Positions 1 to 5,947 of a DNA stretch of 5,947 nucleotides are shown in pieces (the stretch's first letter is position 1; each line of letters starts with the position of its first letter). A model generated the notes under the pieces. The model made no database searches. It saw nothing but the letters and a program-made list of their open reading frames with translations, and was not told where the DNA came from. The stretch lies in IMG/VR virus record IMGVR_UViG_2681813274_000010, one strand, 5' to 3'. This DNA is from a virus. Its lineage: Duplodnaviria; Heunggongvirae; Uroviricota; Caudoviricetes. The translations under genes were made by a program, and so were the position numbers.

Positions 1-582
1 GCCGGGAGAAGTAATCCGGAAGAGGTTTGTTTGACCAGTTGTATATGTGCCATCGGCTTTCTCCGGTGGCACGGTGTTACACAGCAGGAGTTCAATCCTG
101 CTCAAGATTGTNNNNNNNNNNNNNNNNNNNNNNNNNNNNNNNNNNNNNNNNNNNNNNNNNNNNNNNNNNNNNNNNNNNNNNNNNNNNNNNNNNNNNNNNN
201 NNNNNNNNNNNNNNNNNNNNNNNNNNNNNNNNNNNNNNNNNNNNNNNNNNNNNNNNNNNNNNNNNNNNNNNNNNNNNNNNNNNNNNNNNNNNNNNNNNNN
301 NNNNNNNNNNNNNNNNNNNNNNNNNNNNNNNNNNNNNNNNNNNNNNNNNNNNNNNNNNNNNNNNNNNNNNNNNNNNNNNNNNNNNNNNNNNNNNNNNNNN
401 NNNNNNNNNNNNNNNNNNNNNNNNNNNNNNNNNNNNNNNNNNNNNNNNNNNNNNNNNNNNNNNNNNNNNNNNNNNNNNNNNNNNNNNNNNNNNNNNNNNN
501 NNNNNCCGCCGAAACGCTGAGAGATCACAGCGATGGGCGGGTTAAGTGCGGGTGCGTTGAGGATGCCTGACACATCAGAGGT

Positions 583-610
583 GGGCGGGGATGGGATCAG
601 CTCCCCGCCC
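583..610 (-). terminator. GC-rich stem-loop just 3' of hok; possible hok mRNA 3' structure or terminator
   Basis: Perfect 8-bp inverted repeat GGGCGGGG (583-590) / CCCCGCCC (603-610) with a 12-nt loop, 8 nt after the hok stop. No U-rich tail follows on the minus-strand transcript, so it may be a structural 3' element (fbi-like) rather than a classic intrinsic terminator. Confidence 0.35.
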
Positions 611-618
611 GGTCACTC

Positions 619-774
619 TTACTTCCTGGATTCGTAGTCTACGAAGACAGCGACCTCCGTCTGGCCGGTTCGGATTCGTACCTCACAGAGGTCTTTCCTC
701 GTTACCAGTGCCGTCACTATGACGGTTAAACAGATGACGATCAGGGCGATTAACATCGCCTTTTGCTGCTTCAT
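619..774 (-). CDS. hok: Hok/Gef-family type I toxin peptide (51 aa)
   Basis: Translation MKQQKAMLIALIVICLTVIVTALVTRKDLCEVRIRTGQTEVAVFVDYESRK has one N-terminal hydrophobic helix and the conserved C..C tail of Hok/Gef peptides. It is nearly identical to E. coli HokD/HokC as I recall them. AAGGAG Shine-Dalgarno lies 9 nt upstream of the ATG at 774; stop TAA at 619-621. Confidence 0.9.
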   Translation of the reverse strand: MKQQKAMLIALIVICLTVIVTALVTRKDLCEVRIRTGQTEVAVFVDYESRK

Positions 775-831
775 AGCCTGCTTCTCCTTGCCTTTCGGCA
801 TGTAAGAGGCTAACCTACATGTGCAAAGCAT
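619..831 (-). CDS. mok: Mok-like overlapping frame (70 aa, N-terminally extended and in-frame with hok)
   Basis: ATG at 831 opens the same frame as hok (MLCTCRLASYMPKGKEKQA + Hok), preceded by a GAGG Shine-Dalgarno about 8-9 nt upstream. The layout resembles chromosomal mokC/hokC as I recall it. Confidence 0.55.
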   Translation of the reverse strand: MLCTCRLASYMPKGKEKQAMKQQKAMLIALIVICLTVIVTALVTRKDLCEVRIRTGQTEVAVFVDYESRK

Positions 832-900
832 GAAATTGGCCTCAGATTAATGTTAAGCGTCTTGCCGGACGCGTAATGTTAACTGGGGCTTTTCTCTATC
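823..900 (+). ncRNA. sok: Putative Sok-like antisense RNA (boundaries approximate)
   Basis: By analogy with hok/sok loci the antitoxin RNA is encoded opposite the mok SD/start region. Candidate plus-strand promoter: TTGCCT (788-793), 17-nt spacer, TAACCT (811-816). Stem-loop GCGTC/GACGC at 856-871. Transcript ends cannot be fixed from sequence alone. Confidence 0.3.
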
Positions 901-1065
901 TGCCTTTTGGTGTTCATGCCTGAGACAGATAGCCTCAAGCACCCGCTGCAATTCTACTTAACTCTCCTTTTCCCGCAAACCGTTTTTATCCCCAGCGGCA
1001 AATCGAATACACCACCAGCGCCACCGCCATCGCAATTCCTACCGTTGTTAATGCTTCAGGCCAGG

Positions 1066-1410
1066 TCATCGTAAAATATCCTCCACGCTTATCAGTCCGT
1101 TCCGCTCCAGATAACTCATCGCCTTATCCGGTAATTTGCAGTCTGGCTTCGCTTTCCTCAGTTGCCAGGTTAACTGCTTTACCAGCATGGTTAACTCATC
1201 GACCAGACGCTGATATCCCACTGGTTTGTATTCATGCAATTTACCGGCTGGCTCTGCTGCCAGCGATACCAGTGCGATTTCCAGAACAGCAATATCCATC
1301 TTATATGTGCGGATGATGTCATGGTCGATTGTGCCCGGTATGCACAGTCTCTGTGCTTCAATAGTCTCCTCTGCGTGAGCTATTAACTGCTCTCTGGTAA
1401 AAGTCGTCAT
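1066..1410 (-). CDS. Hypothetical phage-type protein (114 aa), paralogous to the upstream 55-aa ORF
   Basis: Intact ORF. Its ATG overlaps the stop of the upstream ORF (ATGA), suggesting translational coupling. Shares the N-terminal MTT[IF]T[KR]E and an IAL-SL-AEP motif with the 55-aa ORF. No family recognised. Confidence 0.6.
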
Positions 1411-1574
1411 GCCGTAGCCCCTTCTTGATATTTTTCAAACCAGAACACAACCGGCTCTGCTTCCAGCGATGCCAGCGCAATCCGTGCCAGTTCCATTTGT
1501 TCACCACGGGTAAGCCCGTTTTCAAGCGGGTTTTTAATGAACAATTCAATACGTTCTTTGGTAATAGTGGTCAT
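1407..1574 (-). CDS. Small hypothetical protein (55 aa)
   Basis: Not in the supplied ORF track. ATG at 1574 is preceded by AAGGAG with a 6-nt spacer. Translation [55 protein letters not shown]; stop TGA at 1407-1409 overlaps the next start. Confidence 0.55.
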
Positions 1575-1640
1575 GTGTTACTCCTTAACCCGCAGTGCTT
1601 TCAACTGATGAGGGGAACAANNNNNNGGTGCCCCATAAAA

Positions 1641-2327
1641 TCACTCCTTCTCTTCTTTACCGTAGTGGAGTTGACCAATTTTGATAAGAGGGCGTCCCTG
1701 AGATTTGCGGTGTAGATTGGTATCGCGCAGAGAATACACACAGCCACAATATTCCTGCTGATAGAATTTTTCGCGCTTGCTGATTTCAATCATACGGGAC
1801 GAGCCGCCCTGCTTGCGCCAGTTATAATCCCAGTACACCATGCCCGGATAATGCGCGACGGCTCGCCGCCCACAGTCGTTAACCTGCTGCATATTTTTCC
1901 AGCGTGAAATGCCCAGTGAACTGCTGATCACACTGAAACCATTTTCAGCGGCGTACAGCGCTGTCCGCTCAAAACGCATGTCAAAACACATGGTGCAACG
2001 GATCCCTCGTTCGGGCTCCCATTCCATTCCTTTGGCTCGTTCAAACCAGTTGTCTGTGTCGTAATCAGCATCAATAAACGGCACGCCGTGTTGTTCAGCA
2101 AAGCGAATATTCTCATCCTTACGAATTAAATACTCTTTCTGAGGATGAATGTTCGGGTTGTAGAAAAAGATGGTGTAGTCGATTCCCGAGGCCTGAAGCG
2201 CCTCCATCACCTCACCGGAACATGGAGCACAGCAAGAGTGCAGTAGTAGTTTGTTTGCCCCGTTTGGGAGCTCCAATTTGGGCCGTTTGAAATCAGCAAC
2301 TGTCATAAATATGTTTATTGGGGTCAT
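1641..2327 (-). CDS. queH: QueH-family (DUF208) epoxyqueuosine reductase-like protein (228 aa)
   Basis: Hallmark motifs [33 protein letters not shown] and EYCGCVYS match the cysteine-rich signature of QueH/DUF208 as I know it. Full-length ORF. True start could be ATG 2327 or the in-frame ATG at 2306; neither has a strong Shine-Dalgarno. Confidence 0.85.
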
Positions 2328-2470
2328 AAAAATATCAAAGAGTGTAGCATTAGAACGGGGCTATCGGAAACAGATGTGTGACTGCTCCCCGCCCTTTCGG
2401 GTGGTCTCCTGATGATTTGAGGGTGCAGAAATCCCTCCGGTTAAGGATTAAATTTTTAACAGTGCTAAAT

Positions 2471-2637
2471 TTAATTATTCAGTTCTGGATTTTGTCGCCC
2501 TGCGTATCCGCGCTTTCGCGTTACGCTCAATCTGTATCAGCTTTTCTATATTTCTCCGCCTTTCCTGTTCCTCCTGGCGCAATAGCCTTACATCATCTGC
2601 CAGTCTGGTTTCTCTTTTTGCCACAGAGAGCATCCAG
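2471..2637. repeat. Direct repeat copy A (pairs with 3418-3584)
   Basis: Ungapped alignment of 2489-2637 against 3436-3584 gives 139/149 identical nt (about 93%). Similarity continues more weakly through both stop codons. Copy A extends further to 2702, where copy B is masked. Confidence 0.85.
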
Positions 2638-2702
2638 TCAAACGGCTCCACAACCGCACCGCAGATTTTACAGCGGACCTGACGCTCTTTTTCGTCAACC
2701 CG
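2475..2702 (-). CDS. Copy A of a conserved CxxC plus basic coiled-coil module; 5' end runs into an N-mask
   Basis: Frame reads RVDEKERQVRCKICGAVVEPFDWMLSVAKRETRLADDVRLLRQEEQERRRNIEKLIQIERNAKARIRRATKSRTE, then stop. The apparent start MLIFLMHR in the ORF track is a GTG in an alternative frame of the upstream gene and is probably not real. Either a small gene starting inside the mask or the C-terminus of a fusion. Confidence 0.5.
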   Translation of the reverse strand, partial: RVDEKERQVRCKICGAVVEPFDWMLSVAKRETRLADDVRLLRQEEQERRRNIEKLIQIERNAKARIRRATKSRTE

Positions 2703-2713
2703 NNNNNNNNNNN

Positions 2714-3207
2714 ACCGATGCATGAGAAAAATCAACACCAGACTTTTCAGCCAGGTCCAAGAGACGCGCTACCAAAGGTGGGGGGGTATAGTAAGCCCCC
2801 AATTCCGAACGGTAAGCGGATGGCAGCATTACCGTATAAATTGACCCAATCAGATATCCAGCGTCCTCCGCCGGAAATTGAGCAATAAGCTCACCTGTTC
2901 GTTCAGCGAGCTCGCGTGCATCACATGGAATGTCTTCTATGTAAACAGTGTGCGGTACTGCCCTCATTTTAATGCTGCTTTTTTGCTTTTTTGCAAGGGT
3001 ATCCCAATATGCAGCTACGATGCTGAAGCAGTATGAGCGGGCATGCATCAACCTTGACTGCCCGGTTTTGTAATTGCCCGCATAACCTTTGGCCATGGCT
3101 TTACAAGTTTGATATCTTTCCAGATTAGAAAACTCATTATCTGTAAAAAAATCAAAATGTTGCACATTCATAATGTAAAATCCTAATGTATCAAACATGC
3201 GGGCCAT
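2714..3207 (-). CDS. Truncated gamma-class N6-adenine DNA methyltransferase, N-terminal fragment only
   Basis: C-terminal part of the ORF reads EDAGYLIGSIYTVMLPSAYRSELGAYYTPPPLVARLLDLAEKSG. This matches the D.LG..YE.LL ... G.[FY]YTP..[VI]..L[LM] region that precedes the SAM-binding motif in HsdM-like/type IIG methylases. The expected D-P-x-C-G-x-G motif I and the NPPY/DPPY motif IV are absent: the frame meets the 11-nt mask and then the unrelated module sequence. Confidence 0.45.
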
Positions 3208-3417
3208 AACATCTCATGGTGGCGCATAGCAAACTGGCCCGAAGAATATCACGCACCAAGTCGATCTCATAACCCGTTATGACAATAAATCTTTGTAGCT
3301 GAACTCACTTGGTGATTTGTCAATCATTCCTGGCCTCCAGTTCGTCCTGAATCTCTTTATCGAGTTCACCGTATTTGTTAGTCCTCATCACTCACGACTT
3401 GACTTCCAGAAATAACC

Positions 3418-3584
3418 TTGATTATTCGGGGCTATATTTTGTCACCCTGCGTATCCGCGCTTTCGCATTACGCTCAATCTGGATTAGCTTTTCTATATTT
3501 TTTCGCCTTTCCCGCTCCTCCTGGCGCAAGAGCCTTACATCATCTGCCAGTCTGGTTTCTCTTTTCGCCACAGAGAGCATCCAG
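3418..3584. repeat. Direct repeat copy B (pairs with 2471-2637)
   Basis: Same alignment as copy A. The repeat runs into the 527-nt N-mask, so its true length is unknown. Confidence 0.85.
3422..3584 (-). CDS. Copy B of the conserved module (3' end of a gene whose 5' part is masked)
   Basis: Frame reads WMLSVAKRETRLADDVRLLRQEERERRKNIEKLIQIERNAKARIRRVTKYSPE, then stop TAA at 3422-3424. It has 139/149 identical nt with 2489-2637. Confidence 0.5.
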
Positions 3585-4111
3585 NNNNNNNNNNNNNNNN
3601 NNNNNNNNNNNNNNNNNNNNNNNNNNNNNNNNNNNNNNNNNNNNNNNNNNNNNNNNNNNNNNNNNNNNNNNNNNNNNNNNNNNNNNNNNNNNNNNNNNNN
3701 NNNNNNNNNNNNNNNNNNNNNNNNNNNNNNNNNNNNNNNNNNNNNNNNNNNNNNNNNNNNNNNNNNNNNNNNNNNNNNNNNNNNNNNNNNNNNNNNNNNN
3801 NNNNNNNNNNNNNNNNNNNNNNNNNNNNNNNNNNNNNNNNNNNNNNNNNNNNNNNNNNNNNNNNNNNNNNNNNNNNNNNNNNNNNNNNNNNNNNNNNNNN
3901 NNNNNNNNNNNNNNNNNNNNNNNNNNNNNNNNNNNNNNNNNNNNNNNNNNNNNNNNNNNNNNNNNNNNNNNNNNNNNNNNNNNNNNNNNNNNNNNNNNNN
4001 NNNNNNNNNNNNNNNNNNNNNNNNNNNNNNNNNNNNNNNNNNNNNNNNNNNNNNNNNNNNNNNNNNNNNNNNNNNNNNNNNNNNNNNNNNNNNNNNNNNN
4101 NNNNNNNNNNN

Positions 4112-4471
4112 CTTCCGGCACTCGCGACAGATTATATTCAGGCGCCTGTCGTAGCGGCGTATTTCTCCGTCAGGTAATGACCAGATAAGGTCCGGATCAA
4201 CAACAACCGGTTTCCTCACCTTTACTCTCGAGAGTTTTTTGCGGGCGCTTTGCCAGTCCTTGCGAGCCTGTTCAGACGGGAATAAGCCGTAGCCAGAATT
4301 ATATACATCACCACTTGCGACCAGTTCTATGCATAAGCGACCGACAGACGCACGACTGATACCTGTTTCATCTGACAACTGCCGAATCGTGACCCGACCG
4401 TCCTGATGCACGAGTTCCACAATTCGCGTCTTCAGTTCTTCCCGCTGTTCGGGAGTAAAAGGTTTCGCCAT
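4112..4471 (-). CDS. Winged-HTH (DeoR-like) DNA-binding protein, 3' end masked; possibly Ren-like by position
   Basis: ATG at 4471 with AGGAGG 4 nt upstream, 14 nt after the DnaC-like stop. N-terminus REELKTRIVELVHQDGRVTIRQLSDETGISRASVGRLCIELVASGDV looks like a DeoR-type HTH. Visible part ends NIICRECRKS at the mask edge. Position directly after the helicase loader matches ren in lambda; sequence similarity to Ren is weak and recalled from memory. Confidence 0.55.
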
Positions 4472-4485
4472 AAATCCTCCTGAAA

Positions 4486-5232
4486 CTACTTAACAACCCT
4501 CGAATGGCTAACATTCGGACGCCAGCTCTCCCAGTTAAAATTCACCCAGCGCCCGCCGTTCATGACCATGCGATCCATCACCCGCTCGCCGAGCAATGTT
4601 TTCATCACCTCATAGTTCAGGTTTGTCAGCATCCCCACGCTGCGCATCGACGCTGTCCGGCGATCAACAATCTGGTGCAGCACCACCTGCTCGTTTTTCG
4701 TCTCGCGCTGAATGCCAATTTCATCAAGAACCAGCAGATCCACTTCGCACAGCTCCCGCAAAAATTTTTCGCCTGACTGCCCGTCGTCATAGCTGGCGTG
4801 CAGGGCGCTCATAACATCAGCCACGGTAACCACAATCACTGTCTGACCGTCTTTCAGCAGGCGATTCCCGATAGCTGCCGCTAAGTGATTCTTCCCGGTA
4901 CCAGGTTTTCCGCTGAACGCAAAATTTGTACACCCGGTCATCAGTTCATCGGCGATGGATTTCGCCTGGCTTAACGCGTATCGCTGGCCGTCGTTCTGCA
5001 CCTGGTAATTCGCAAACGAGCATTTACGGTGCAACGGCTGGATGCCTGAGCGATTCAGAATTTTTTCCACCCGCAACTGGCGATTCAGGCGGTTGATCTC
5101 CTCGCTACGTTTCTGGCCTTCAGCAAGTTGCCACTCGCGCCACTCCGCTACCGTTCTGAATGGGGCGGTTACATGTGGCGGGGTCAGTCGGCGGATGCGT
5201 TCCAGAACGCCGCCTGTCGCAATATTTTTCAT
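4486..5232 (-). CDS. DnaC-family AAA+ helicase loader (phage replication protein, 248 aa)
   Basis: Walker A FSGKPGTGKNHLAAAIGN and Walker B DLLVLDEIG, plus RSGIQPLHRKCSFANY and LLGERVMDRM. These align along the whole length with E. coli DnaC as I recall it, at roughly half identity. Intact ORF; its start lies 10 nt after the stop of the upstream initiator. Confidence 0.9.
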   Translation of the reverse strand: MKNIATGGVLERIRRLTPPHVTAPFRTVAEWREWQLAEGQKRSEEINRLNRQLRVEKILNRSGIQPLHRKCSFANYQVQNDGQRYALSQAKSIADELMTGCTNFAFSGKPGTGKNHLAAAIGNRLLKDGQTVIVVTVADVMSALHASYDDGQSGEKFLRELCEVDLLVLDEIGIQRETKNEQVVLHQIVDRRTASMRSVGMLTNLNYEVMKTLLGERVMDRMVMNGGRWVNFNWESWRPNVSHSRVVK

Positions 5233-5238
5233 GGTCCG

Positions 5239-5574
5239 TTACCCCCTGAAGCCTGGCGGGATCGCACTGTCCGGCAACGAGACGGTGTTAACCTGTCGGA
5301 GCAACGTCTCAGGCCGAACACCTTTCGGCGCGAACAGGCCCTGGTATTCATTGGCGATGCTGTGTCGAATCACCTGCTCAGGTGTAAAACCCTGCTGACG
5401 GAATTTTTCCAGTTCCCGTATCGCCCCGTTAGCGCCCTGCTCCGTTCGAATCGGTTTTCGCAATGCCTGTCTGAACCGGACCCACTCATGCCAGAGTGTT
5501 TCCGGCAACCAATCGGGCAGCTCAATAGCCTCCGGCTCGAATTTTTTAGACGCTCGTTTTTGGCGAGGGGGAGA
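5239..5574 (-). CDS. Replication initiator, C-terminal DnaT-like domain (frame segment)
   Basis: Frame reads SPPRQKRASKKFEPEAIELPDWLPETLWHEWVRF...RQVNTVSLPDSAIPPGFRG. The C-terminal motif VNTVS.PDS.IPPGFRG matches the C-terminus of primosomal protein DnaT as I recall it. The segment is bounded upstream by an in-frame TGA at 5575-5577, so it is not a full gene by itself. Confidence 0.7.
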   Translation of the reverse strand, partial: SPPRQKRASKKFEPEAIELPDWLPETLWHEWVRFRQALRKPIRTEQGANGAIRELEKFRQQGFTPEQVIRHSIANEYQGLFAPKGVRPETLLRQVNTVSLPDSAIPPGFRG

Positions 5575-5604
5575 TCAGTATTTAGATCTTCCTCTTCCTC
5601 TTCC

Positions 5605-5865
5605 TCTGGTAACGCTTTTTGATCCGTTTGTGTAACGCTGGCAGCGTTACCTTTTCGTTTCAGTTCGCGTATTTTTGTTACTCGCTCGTTTGTAACCGCC
5701 CGTTTTTTTTAGAGCTTTTTCCGTTATGACGTTCAAAGTTAGGTAGAGAAAGCCCTCCGTCATTTTCGACCAGCCATCCAACCTGAATTAACGCATCAGC
5801 AAAACCAGACATAAAAGTGATGCGATCTATTGCACTTTTTGTAACGCCGCGAGCGTTACAATCTG
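5605..5865. promoter_or_regulatory. Putative replication origin: iteron-like GTAACGC repeats inside the initiator gene
   Basis: GTAACGC occurs at 5609-5615, 5632-5638 and 5841-5847. Its complement GCGTTAC occurs at 5644-5650 and 5853-5859. Two near-palindromes result: GTAACGCTG-g-CAGCGTTAC (5632-5650) and GTAACGC-cgcga-GCGTTAC (5841-5859). A variant GTAACCGC sits at 5692-5699, with T-rich tracts at 5616-5620 and 5703-5710. By analogy with ori-lambda lying inside gene O. Confidence 0.35.
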
Positions 5866-5947
5866 CATTACCGTCTATCATTTGTTGATCCGCCCATGCC
5901 CAGAAGCGAATAACCTGAGGTAGCCTGAGTTTAACGGACACTCCTTC
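5678..5947 (-). CDS. Replication initiator, N-terminal domain (frame segment; 5' end beyond the window)
   Basis: Frame is open to the right edge of the window; the GTG start shown in the ORF track is probably internal. Ends NGKSSKKNGRLQTSE at TAA 5678-5680 directly after an A8 run. An acidic/basic linker continues in a third frame (5550-5708). Confidence 0.55.
   Translation of the reverse strand, partial: EGVSVKLRLPQVIRFWAWADQQMIDGNADCNARGVTKSAIDRITFMSGFADALIQVGWLVENDGGLSLPNFERHNGKSSKKNGRLQTSE

What the first reader, a model, noticed from the sequence alone, without database searches (positions are those of the whole stretch)
2714..3207. Remnant of an N6-adenine DNA methyltransferase, cut off just before its catalytic motifs
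The TPP-containing pre-motif region of gamma-class N6-adenine methylases is clear (DAGYLIGSIYTVML…GAYYTPPPLVARLLDLAEKSG). The frame then stops being methyltransferase-like exactly at the 11-nt mask and joins repeat copy A. This suggests a restriction-modification or other methylase-based module (for example a BREX-like or type IIG system) once occupied this slot and was disrupted. The N-terminal 80 residues of the ORF are AT-rich and unfamiliar, so the true start may be internal.
Basis: partly seen in the sequence, partly recalled or inferred. Interest (0 to 1): 0.5.

Follow-up and report, generated by a model that had tools for sequence, protein, structure and literature searches.

The report
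Methylase "remnant" is a scaffolding artefact
The stretch really is the first 164 codons of a restriction-modification DNA methylase gene, but it looks cut off only because the window is a draft scaffold that stitched pieces of look-alike Shigella/E. coli prophages together across runs of N; finished genomes carry the gene intact elsewhere.

Summary
Window 2714-3207 (minus strand) encodes residues 1-164 of a 610-aa gamma-class N6-adenine methyltransferase. It stops 2 residues before motif I (DPACGGG 167-173; NPPY 260-263).

The "disrupted remnant" reading does not hold.
- The block 2714-3584 is 100% identical to a locus in closed Shigella sonnei chromosomes. There the gene is intact and is followed by a BsuBI/PstI-family restriction endonuclease.
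- The blocks either side (1627-2702 and 4112-5947) are 100% identical to a different prophage locus: DnaC-like, DUF977, hyp, QueH, hokD. In closed genomes these two blocks lie 249 nt apart, with no methylase piece between them.
- Each junction not found in any reference compared (N6, N11, N527) is a run of N.
- An independent S. sonnei draft, CXEN01000180.1, is 100% identical in the flanks. It has single Ns at the same places, and its methylase piece stops at nt 209 instead of 494.
- The left-hand block ends exactly at the end of a 38-nt run shared by the two paralogous loci.
- The window's right end lies 33 nt inside an insertion-sequence (IS) copy.

The Ns are therefore most likely assembly gaps, and the tandem "copy A / copy B" plus truncated methylase is most likely a mis-scaffolded alternative branch. 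The intact gene is on at least 1000 S. sonnei contigs. Interest is low, and the truncation is not a real feature.

The parts
2714..3207 (-). First 494 nt (codons 1-164 plus 2 nt) of a 1833-nt gamma-class N6-adenine DNA methyltransferase gene. It ends 2 codons before motif I.
   Evidence: 100% identical to L001 6001-6494 and L022 5494-5001. Pfam N6_Mtase and Eco57I match the full-length orthologue only.
3208..3421 (-). 214-nt intergenic region upstream of the methylase gene, part of block d.
   Evidence: Part of the 871-nt stretch that is 100% identical to the R-M locus of closed genomes. No sigma-70-like site was found.
3422..3584 (-). 3' 163 nt of 'hyp' copy B, the zinc-ribbon-like 118-aa gene of the R-M-bearing prophage remnant. 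This is the right end of block d.
   Evidence: Equals L001 6709-6871. Weak Zn_Ribbon_TF match on the full protein.
2703..2713 (.). 11 Ns, best read as a scaffold gap between block c (QueH locus) and block d (R-M locus), not as hidden contiguous sequence.
   Evidence: No collection holds this junction. L011 has a single N at the same hyp position but a different methylase endpoint.
2471..2702 (-). 'hyp' copy A: codons 44-118, the stop codon and 4 nt beyond it, belonging to the QueH-locus hyp gene. This is the right end of block c.
   Evidence: 100% identical to closed chromosomes L018, L020 and L021, where the gene is an intact 118 aa. The block ends exactly at the end of a 38-nt run identical between the two paralogous loci.
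1627..2702 (-). Block c: QueH gene (1641-2306/2327), intergenic region and hyp copy A 3' part. True neighbour of block e.
   Evidence: 100% identical to L020 5680-4605 and L011. QueH Pfam match 1.9e-65.
3585..4111 (.). 527 Ns: a gap over the repeat-rich zone (hyp 5' part, intergenic region, DUF977 3' end) shared by the paralogous loci.
   Evidence: The matching distance is 314-315 nt in L001, L003 and L029. The zone contains identical runs of 38, 61 and 91-168 nt.
4112..5947 (-). Block e: DUF977 gene, ydaV/DnaC-like gene and a degraded replication-initiator gene of the QueH-locus prophage. Its last 33 nt are an end of an insertion-sequence (IS) copy.
   Evidence: 100% identical to L020 4355-2520 and L011 4933-3098. 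IS end.
506..1620 (-). Block b: a hokD paralogue plus two small ORFs from a third prophage type, joined to block c by 6 Ns.
   Evidence: 7 mismatches to the true locus over 506-967, while all other blocks are 100%. Window 940-1620 is 100% identical to NCTC86-type prophages, which continue differently. Closed genomes have 20 nt where the window has 659.

Best explanation
The window is a short-read draft scaffold, or the end of one, most likely from Shigella sonnei. Its runs of N are assembly gaps. Contigs from paralogous lambdoid prophage remnants were interleaved in it.

Blocks a, c and e (1-111, 1627-2702, 4112-5947) come from the Rac-like locus: DnaC-like, DUF977, hyp, QueH, hokD. Block d (2714-3584) comes from a second locus: DnaC-like, DUF1627, DUF977, hyp, methyltransferase, BsuBI/PstI endonuclease, IS1. 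Block b (506-1620) comes from a third prophage type.

The two hyp/DUF977 regions share exact runs of 38-168 nt, so the assembly graph branches there. I infer that the scaffolder then placed the two alternative branches one after the other. That would create a false tandem 'copy A / copy B' and a methylase gene that seems to stop at a gap.

Shown: the block identities, the gap positions, the intact gene at its native locus in closed genomes, and the different endpoint in a second assembly. Inferred: the scaffolder's behaviour, and that this isolate's own methylase gene is intact.

Biologically, the fragment is the 5' end of the M gene of a two-gene type II R-M module carried in the accessory-gene slot downstream of hyp. 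The methyltransferase (motif X, then I, then IV, then a C-terminal target-recognition part) would N6-methylate adenine in the site cut by the adjacent BsuBI/PstI-family endonuclease. That site is presumably CTGCAG, by family analogy only, and methylation would protect host DNA.
For: 1. Block d is 100% identical over 871 nt to L001 and to closed chromosomes L022-L025. There the methylase is 610 aa and is followed by a 360-aa BsuBI/PstI endonuclease.
2. Blocks c and e are 100% identical to closed chromosomes L018, L020 and L021. There they are 249 nt apart, with an intact 118-aa hyp and no methylase piece. The window has 1409 nt in that interval.
3. Three of the four N-runs (N6, N11, N527) sit at junctions not found in any reference compared. 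No complete E. coli genome holds the N11 junction or the join across N6. The N11 junction pattern was also absent from the viral, metagenome and species-representative collections.
4. L011 (S. sonnei CXEN01000180.1) is 100% identical to c, to e and to window 2999-3584. It has single Ns at the joins, and its methylase piece ends at nt 209, not 494. Its c and e blocks are 17 nt apart in L003 coordinates. Its two R-M-locus pieces overlap by 29 nt in closed-genome coordinates yet are separated in the scaffold by an IS copy plus block e.
5. Block c ends exactly at the last base of a 38-nt run identical between the paralogous loci. Block e starts at, or within 2 nt of, such a boundary.
6. The window's right end lies 33 nt inside an IS copy, as expected for a contig end at a repeat.
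7. The intact 610-aa protein occurs on at least 1000 contigs and in 3929 index blocks, 76 of them with contigs over 1 Mb. Sources name it Shigella sonnei.
Against: - I could not find the window's own source record or its reads. That the Ns are native gaps is inferred by analogy with L011 and from the block structure.
- Gap sizes fit imperfectly. N527 stands against an expected 314 nt, and the a-to-c distance is 1515 in the window against 886 in closed genomes.
- The left end of block d (2714) and its right end (3584) do not fall exactly on a repeat boundary. Why the contig stops at methylase nt 494 is therefore unexplained; gap-filling extension is only a guess.
- Genuinely truncated homologues do exist elsewhere, for example a 168-aa ORF on a 1.8-Mb Citrobacter freundii contig.
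Confidence: 0.88

Rival explanations
1. Real truncation by illegitimate recombination. In this isolate a crossover joined methylase nt ~494 of the R-M prophage remnant to codon ~44 of the hyp gene of the QueH prophage. That deleted motifs I-VIII and the endonuclease gene, and the 11 Ns hide the true junction.
For: - The readable sequence on the two sides of the Ns is methylase on one side and hyp on the other.
- Copies A and B differ by about 8-9%, so they are not a trivial duplication.
- Truncated homologues exist in other species.
Against: - The junction is never sequenced in any collection.
- It would also need a second illegitimate junction on the other side, because both flanks c and e belong to the QueH locus and lie 249 nt apart in closed genomes.
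- L011 would need an independent event with the same hyp endpoint but a different methylase endpoint, again hidden by an N.
- The intact gene is near-universal in S. sonnei assemblies.
Confidence: 0.06
2. The gene is really interrupted in this isolate by an insertion sequence (IS) at about nt 494, S. sonnei being IS-rich. The contig broke at that repeat, and the scaffolder then joined it to the wrong neighbour.
For: - IS copies are abundant around both loci.
- No paralogue boundary explains why block d stops at 2714.
Against: - Block d matches the methylase gene up to its last base and carries no IS end sequence. By contrast, the window's right end does carry 33 nt of an IS.
- L011 stops at a different position, nt 209, also without IS sequence.
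- The intact protein is the overwhelmingly common state.
Confidence: 0.04
3. The Ns are deliberate masks laid over a truly contiguous contig, and the mosaic (three prophage types in 6 kb) is a genuine recombinant prophage.
For: - Lambdoid prophages are mosaic.
- L029, a contig without Ns, joins block e directly to hyp copy B and an intact methylase, so some e-to-d linkage may be real.
Against: - Masks of 6 and 11 nt that fall exactly on junctions found in none of the references compared, and nowhere else, would be an unlikely coincidence.
- The public record behind L011 carries its own Ns at the same joins.
- Even in L029 the methylase is intact.
Confidence: 0.02

Closest known systems
False duplication or mis-join of paralogous branches in short-read scaffolds (general assembly artefact; stated from my own knowledge, not from a paper read here)
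   Same: - Two about 92%-identical copies of the same gene end are placed in tandem and separated by N-runs.
- Blocks are each 100% identical to separate loci of closed genomes.
- A contig end falls at an exact-repeat boundary.
- The fragment length differs between two assemblies.
   Different: The assembler and scaffolder used are unknown, and the gap sizes do not match the true distances well.
The intact S. sonnei / Enterobacteriaceae prophage-borne methyltransferase (610 aa; WP_000113425.1 in L001, and its one-cluster S. sonnei variant P0015) with its BsuBI/PstI-family endonuclease (360 aa)
   Same: The window fragment is 100% identical at DNA level to the first 494 nt of the gene, plus 377 nt upstream.
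   Different: The window shows only residues 1-164. Motif I, motif IV, the C-terminal region and the endonuclease gene are not in the window.
EcoGIII / M.EcoGIII, the BsuBI/PstI-type R-M system of Stx2a prophages that methylates CTGCAG (as described in PMC3893438)
   Same: A two-gene type II R-M module carried by a lambdoid prophage, with an endonuclease of the BsuBI/PstI family.
   Different: The methyltransferase found in Stx2a phage records is only about 26% identical, over 55% of the query. It is a distant relative, and the specificity of the S. sonnei enzyme is not established here.
M.TaqI, the gamma-class N6-adenine methyltransferase with solved structures
   Same: Best solved-structure match, E = 3e-8 over residues 241-337 around NPPY. 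Same motif order.
   Different: The match lies wholly outside the 164 residues present in the window. The N-terminal 120 residues have no solved or Pfam counterpart.

Membership tests
Gamma-class N6-adenine DNA methyltransferase (Pfam N6_Mtase PF02384 / Eco57I PF07669) | Profile match above the curated cut-off | tested here: met
   Met for the full-length orthologue: N6_Mtase 37.7 bits (cut-off 20.4) and Eco57I 51.4 bits (cut-off 25.3). The 164-aa window fragment alone matches nothing at E <= 1.
Gamma-class N6-adenine DNA methyltransferase | Motif order X, then I (SAM binding), then IV (NPPY/F/W), with the target-recognition part C-terminal | tested here: met
   In the full protein YYTPPP is at 139-144, DPACGGG at 167-173 and NPPY at 260-263. 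The window holds only the motif-X region.
Gamma-class N6-adenine DNA methyltransferase | Catalytic motifs I and IV present in the window's own ORF | tested here: not met
   The readable frame ends at residue 164 and then runs into the Ns.
BsuBI/PstI-family type II R-M system | Adjacent endonuclease gene with BsuBI_PstI_RE and BsuBI_PstI_RE_N domains | tested here: met
   Met at the native locus: L001 3583-4665 (9.3e-45 and 1.2e-30) and L022-L030. No such gene is in the window.
BsuBI/PstI-family type II R-M system | Methylation and cleavage of CTGCAG | not testable with these tools
   Needs a methylome or enzymology. Only the family analogy is available (PMC3893438).
   BREX models score 17.5-37.7 bits against cut-offs of 400-900. 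The endonuclease is a separate 360-aa gene.
Genuine pseudogene or deletion remnant | A sequenced junction between the truncated gene and the foreign flank | tested here: not met
   The junction is Ns in the window and a single N in L011. It is absent from all collections searched.
Genuine pseudogene or deletion remnant | No intact copy of the gene in the same genome | not testable with these tools
   The source assembly and its reads were not found. Closest relatives carry the intact gene.
Scaffold mis-join of paralogous loci | Blocks between Ns are each identical to different loci of closed genomes, and removing the odd block restores the closed-genome order | tested here: met
   Blocks c and e are 100% identical to L020 and lie 249 nt apart there. 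Block d is 100% identical to L022-L025.
Scaffold mis-join of paralogous loci | An independent assembly shows the same join with different fragment ends | tested here: met
   In L011 the methylase piece ends at nt 209, with single Ns at the joins and interleaved locus pieces.
Scaffold mis-join of paralogous loci | Read-level proof: no reads or pairs support the join | not testable with these tools
   No access to reads.

The most novel reading that the evidence does not exclude
The junction is real. Some S. sonnei lineages would then carry a methylase N-terminal domain (residues 1-70 or 1-164) joined to the C-terminal 75 residues of the prophage zinc-ribbon protein. The in-frame version is the 145-aa database ORF P0006. 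This would be a recurrent recombination point at hyp codon 44 that creates a new chimeric small protein while deleting an R-M system.
Probability: 0.05. Interest if true: 0.25.

Novelty: not a real feature. Interest (0 to 1): 0.05.

Why it matters
It matters mainly as a caution for the scan.
- Runs of N in draft scaffolds should not be read as masks over contiguous DNA. In prophage-rich Shigella and E. coli drafts they mark places where paralogous contigs were chained.
- Such chaining produces false tandem repeats, false "remnants" and even chimeric ORFs that reach public protein databases. P0006, annotated "putative bacteriophage protein [Shigella sonnei]", reads straight through a single N.

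The biology underneath is ordinary. It is a known kind of prophage-borne two-gene type II R-M module. It is near-universal in S. sonnei assemblies and rare in E. coli (2 of 5426 complete genomes).

Tried and rejected
- **Junction pattern searches.** The junction, with the 11 positions free, was searched in species-representative genomes, viral contigs and metagenome contigs. There were no hits.
- **45-mer searches.** A 45-mer from the methylase side gave no hit in species-representative genomes or metagenomes. It gave five viral contigs, all with an intact methylase and endonuclease.
- **Profile searches on the fragment alone.** Pfam and NCBIfam found nothing.
- **Homologue search with the fragment.** It returned only short or partial proteins and not the full-length cluster. 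The full-length cluster was recovered by exact look-up instead.
- **Promoter scan of 2330-3584.** No sigma-70-like site was found.
- **BREX and type IIG membership.** Considered and rejected.
- **Recent tandem duplication.** Considered and rejected, because copies A and B differ at 16 of 167 positions and each matches a different locus at 100%.
- **Source record.** I could not identify the window's own record, so the read-level test remains undone.

Full report
**What is in the window.** The window has four runs of N: 112-505, 1621-1626, 2703-2713 and 3585-4111. They split it into five readable blocks:
- a: 1-111
- b: 506-1620
- c: 1627-2702
- d: 2714-3584
- e: 4112-5947

All genes of interest lie on the minus strand:
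- ydaV/DnaC-like, 4486-5232
- DUF977, 4112-4471
- the 3' end of a small zinc-ribbon-like gene ('hyp', copy B), 3422-3584
- a 214-nt spacer
- the ORF of the finding, 3207 down to 2714
- 11 Ns
- the 3' 232 nt of a second hyp copy (copy A), 2471-2702
- QueH, 1641-2327
- 6 Ns
- two small ORFs
- hokD

**Check of the observation.**
- The 164 readable codons of 2714-3207 contain the quoted peptides. They equal residues 1-164 of a 610-aa protein that RefSeq annotates as "HsdM family class I SAM-dependent methyltransferase" in E. coli FDAARGOS_943 (L001). The DNA is 100% identical over 871 nt, window 2714-3584 against L001 6001-6871.
- In the full protein YYTPPP is at 139-144, motif I DPACGGG at 167-173 and motif IV NPPY at 260-263. 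This is the gamma-class order, and the readable frame stops two residues before motif I.
- The full protein passes Pfam N6_Mtase and Eco57I. The fragment alone matches no Pfam or NCBIfam model.
- The best solved relative is M.TaqI, matched only around NPPY.
- The gene downstream in L001 is a 360-aa endonuclease with both BsuBI/PstI domains.
- The description is therefore accurate, and the module is a two-gene type II R-M pair. It is not BREX or type IIG.

**Where the blocks come from.**
- Only 2 of 5426 complete E. coli genomes have this methylase, both intact. None has the methylase/hyp junction.
- The rest of the window matches a different prophage in the same strain and in FDAARGOS_944 (L003, L004). 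That prophage reads DnaC-like, DUF977, hyp, QueH, hokD, and the identity is 98.8-99.9%.
- An exact look-up of the window's QueH protein gave closed chromosomes L018, L020 and L021 that are 100% identical to blocks a, c and e. In them window 2702 and window 4112 are 249 nt apart, hyp is an intact 118-aa gene, and no methylase piece is present. The window has 1409 nt there.
- Block d is 100% identical to a separate locus of closed chromosomes L022-L025 that carry the 610-aa protein sources name Shigella sonnei. That locus reads DnaC-like, DUF1627, DUF977, hyp, methylase (610 aa), BsuBI/PstI endonuclease (360 aa), IS1.
- The intact protein is named Shigella sonnei by its sources. It occurs on at least 1000 contigs and in 3929 index blocks, 76 of them with contigs over 1 Mb.
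- Block b has 7 mismatches to the true locus, while every other block is at 100%. It carries 653 extra nt that are 100% identical to NCTC86-type prophages, which continue differently.

**The second assembly.**
- The homologue search returned a 145-aa S. sonnei ORF, P0006. It consists of methylase residues 1-70 fused to exactly the copy-A peptide RVDEKERQ....
- Its contig (L011; GCA_001258415.1, CXEN01000180.1) is 100% identical to window blocks c and e and to window 2999-3584. It carries a single N precisely at the fusion point, and the ORF reads through it because ACN still codes Thr.
- In L011 the methylase piece ends at nt 209, not 494, while block c starts at the same base as in the window.
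- In L003 coordinates L011's blocks c and e are only 17 nt apart.
- L011's two R-M-locus pieces overlap by 29 nt in closed-genome coordinates, so they are truly adjacent. In the scaffold they are separated by an IS copy plus block e.
- The public record therefore interleaves two paralogous loci, with Ns at every join.

**Why the Ns look like assembly gaps.**
- The three N-runs at joins not found in any reference compared are 6, 11 and 527 nt long.
- Block c ends exactly at the last base of a 38-nt run that is identical between the two paralogous loci. This holds both for the FDAARGOS pair and for the closed chromosomes compared, L020 and L022.
- Block e begins at the end of a 168-nt identical run in the first comparison, and within 2 nt of a run boundary in the second.
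- The zone under N527 contains the long shared runs (38, 61 and 91-168 nt).
- The window's right end lies 33 nt inside an IS copy, as contigs do when they stop at a repeat.
- N394 corresponds to 404 nt in closed genomes.
- L029, a contig without Ns, goes from block e through the shared zone (314 nt) into hyp copy B and an intact methylase plus endonuclease. This shows how easily assemblers cross between the two loci there.

**Conclusion.**
- The most likely account, at about 0.88, is that the window is a mis-scaffolded draft. Block d is the end of a contig from the R-M locus that was placed in series with its paralogous counterpart, block c.
- On this account the "remnant", the tandem copies A and B and the chimeric frames are artefacts.
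- What is shown is the block identities, the gap positions, the intact gene at its native locus and the differing endpoint in L011.
- What is inferred is the scaffolder's behaviour, and that this isolate's own gene is intact.
- Weak points:
  - I could not find the source record or its reads.
  - Gap sizes fit poorly.
  - Nothing explains why block d stops at nt 494.
- Rivals are a real illegitimate deletion (about 0.06), an IS insertion in this isolate (about 0.04), and deliberate masks over a true mosaic (about 0.02).

**How the real gene presumably works.** This part is inference from family membership. The methylase is a gamma-class N6-adenine enzyme that protects host DNA from the adjacent BsuBI/PstI-family endonuclease.
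- The pair sits as an accessory module of lower GC content (43.6%, against 48-52% for the window's other readable blocks) downstream of hyp in a lambdoid prophage remnant.
- A BsuBI/PstI-type pair in Stx2a prophages methylates CTGCAG (PMC3893438). The methylase found in Stx2a phage records is only about 26% identical to this one, so the specificity here is untested.

**Novelty and interest.** The truncation is not a real feature. The gene beneath it is an already annotated, common S. sonnei R-M module. Interest is 0.05. The only value is as a warning about N-runs, false duplications and chimeric database ORFs.

Noticed in passing
L011 6001-6438 (protein P0006): A public 145-aa 'putative bacteriophage protein [Shigella sonnei]' is a chimeric ORF. 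It consists of methylase residues 1-70 plus hyp residues 44-118 and is read through a single scaffold N (ACN = Thr).
   Followed up: yes
L011 whole locus (N at 1865, 5166, 6210): The scaffold interleaves two paralogous prophage loci in the order B1, IS copy, A1, B2, A2. B1 and B2 overlap by 29 nt in closed-genome coordinates, and A1 and A2 are 17 nt apart.
   Followed up: yes
window 506-1620 and 1621-1626: The hokD-containing block has 7 mismatches to the true locus and carries two extra small ORFs (1066-1410, 1407-1574) typical of NCTC86-type prophages. The 6-N join to QueH is found in no complete E. coli genome.
   Followed up: partly
window 5915-5947: The last 33 nt of the window are an end of an IS copy (it looks like IS600 from memory; not verified). 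The window therefore probably ends where a contig ended.
   Followed up: partly
L029 1-5578: A contig without Ns (GCA_053700235.1) joins the QueH-locus DnaC-like and DUF977 genes, 100% identical to window block e, directly to hyp copy B, an intact methylase and the endonuclease. This is either a true homologous recombinant or a chimeric contig formed through the shared repeats.
   Followed up: no
P0001, P0002, P0004: Short homologues exist elsewhere. One is a 168-aa ORF on a 1.8-Mb Citrobacter freundii contig whose frame breaks right after motif I (DPACGGG). Genuine decay of this methylase family probably does occur in other species.
   Followed up: no
window 1641-2327: An epoxyqueuosine reductase QueH gene sits as cargo in the prophage between hyp and hokD. 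The 221-aa product is listed in 5483 index blocks of the assembly collection, and in 8 of the 10 loci read it follows DUF977 and hyp; in all 10, hokD follows it.
   Followed up: no
window 5239-5941: The replication-initiator gene upstream of ydaV is broken into ORFs of 89 and 87 aa. It is 262 aa in L013 and L019, and the closed genome L020 has no gene call there. It is probably a real pseudogene of this prophage remnant.
   Followed up: no
L001 3583-6494 versus all complete E. coli genomes: This R-M module is found in only 2 of 5426 complete E. coli genomes but on at least 1000 contigs in the assembly collection; its sources name it Shigella sonnei/Shigella. It may serve as a lineage marker.
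   Followed up: partly
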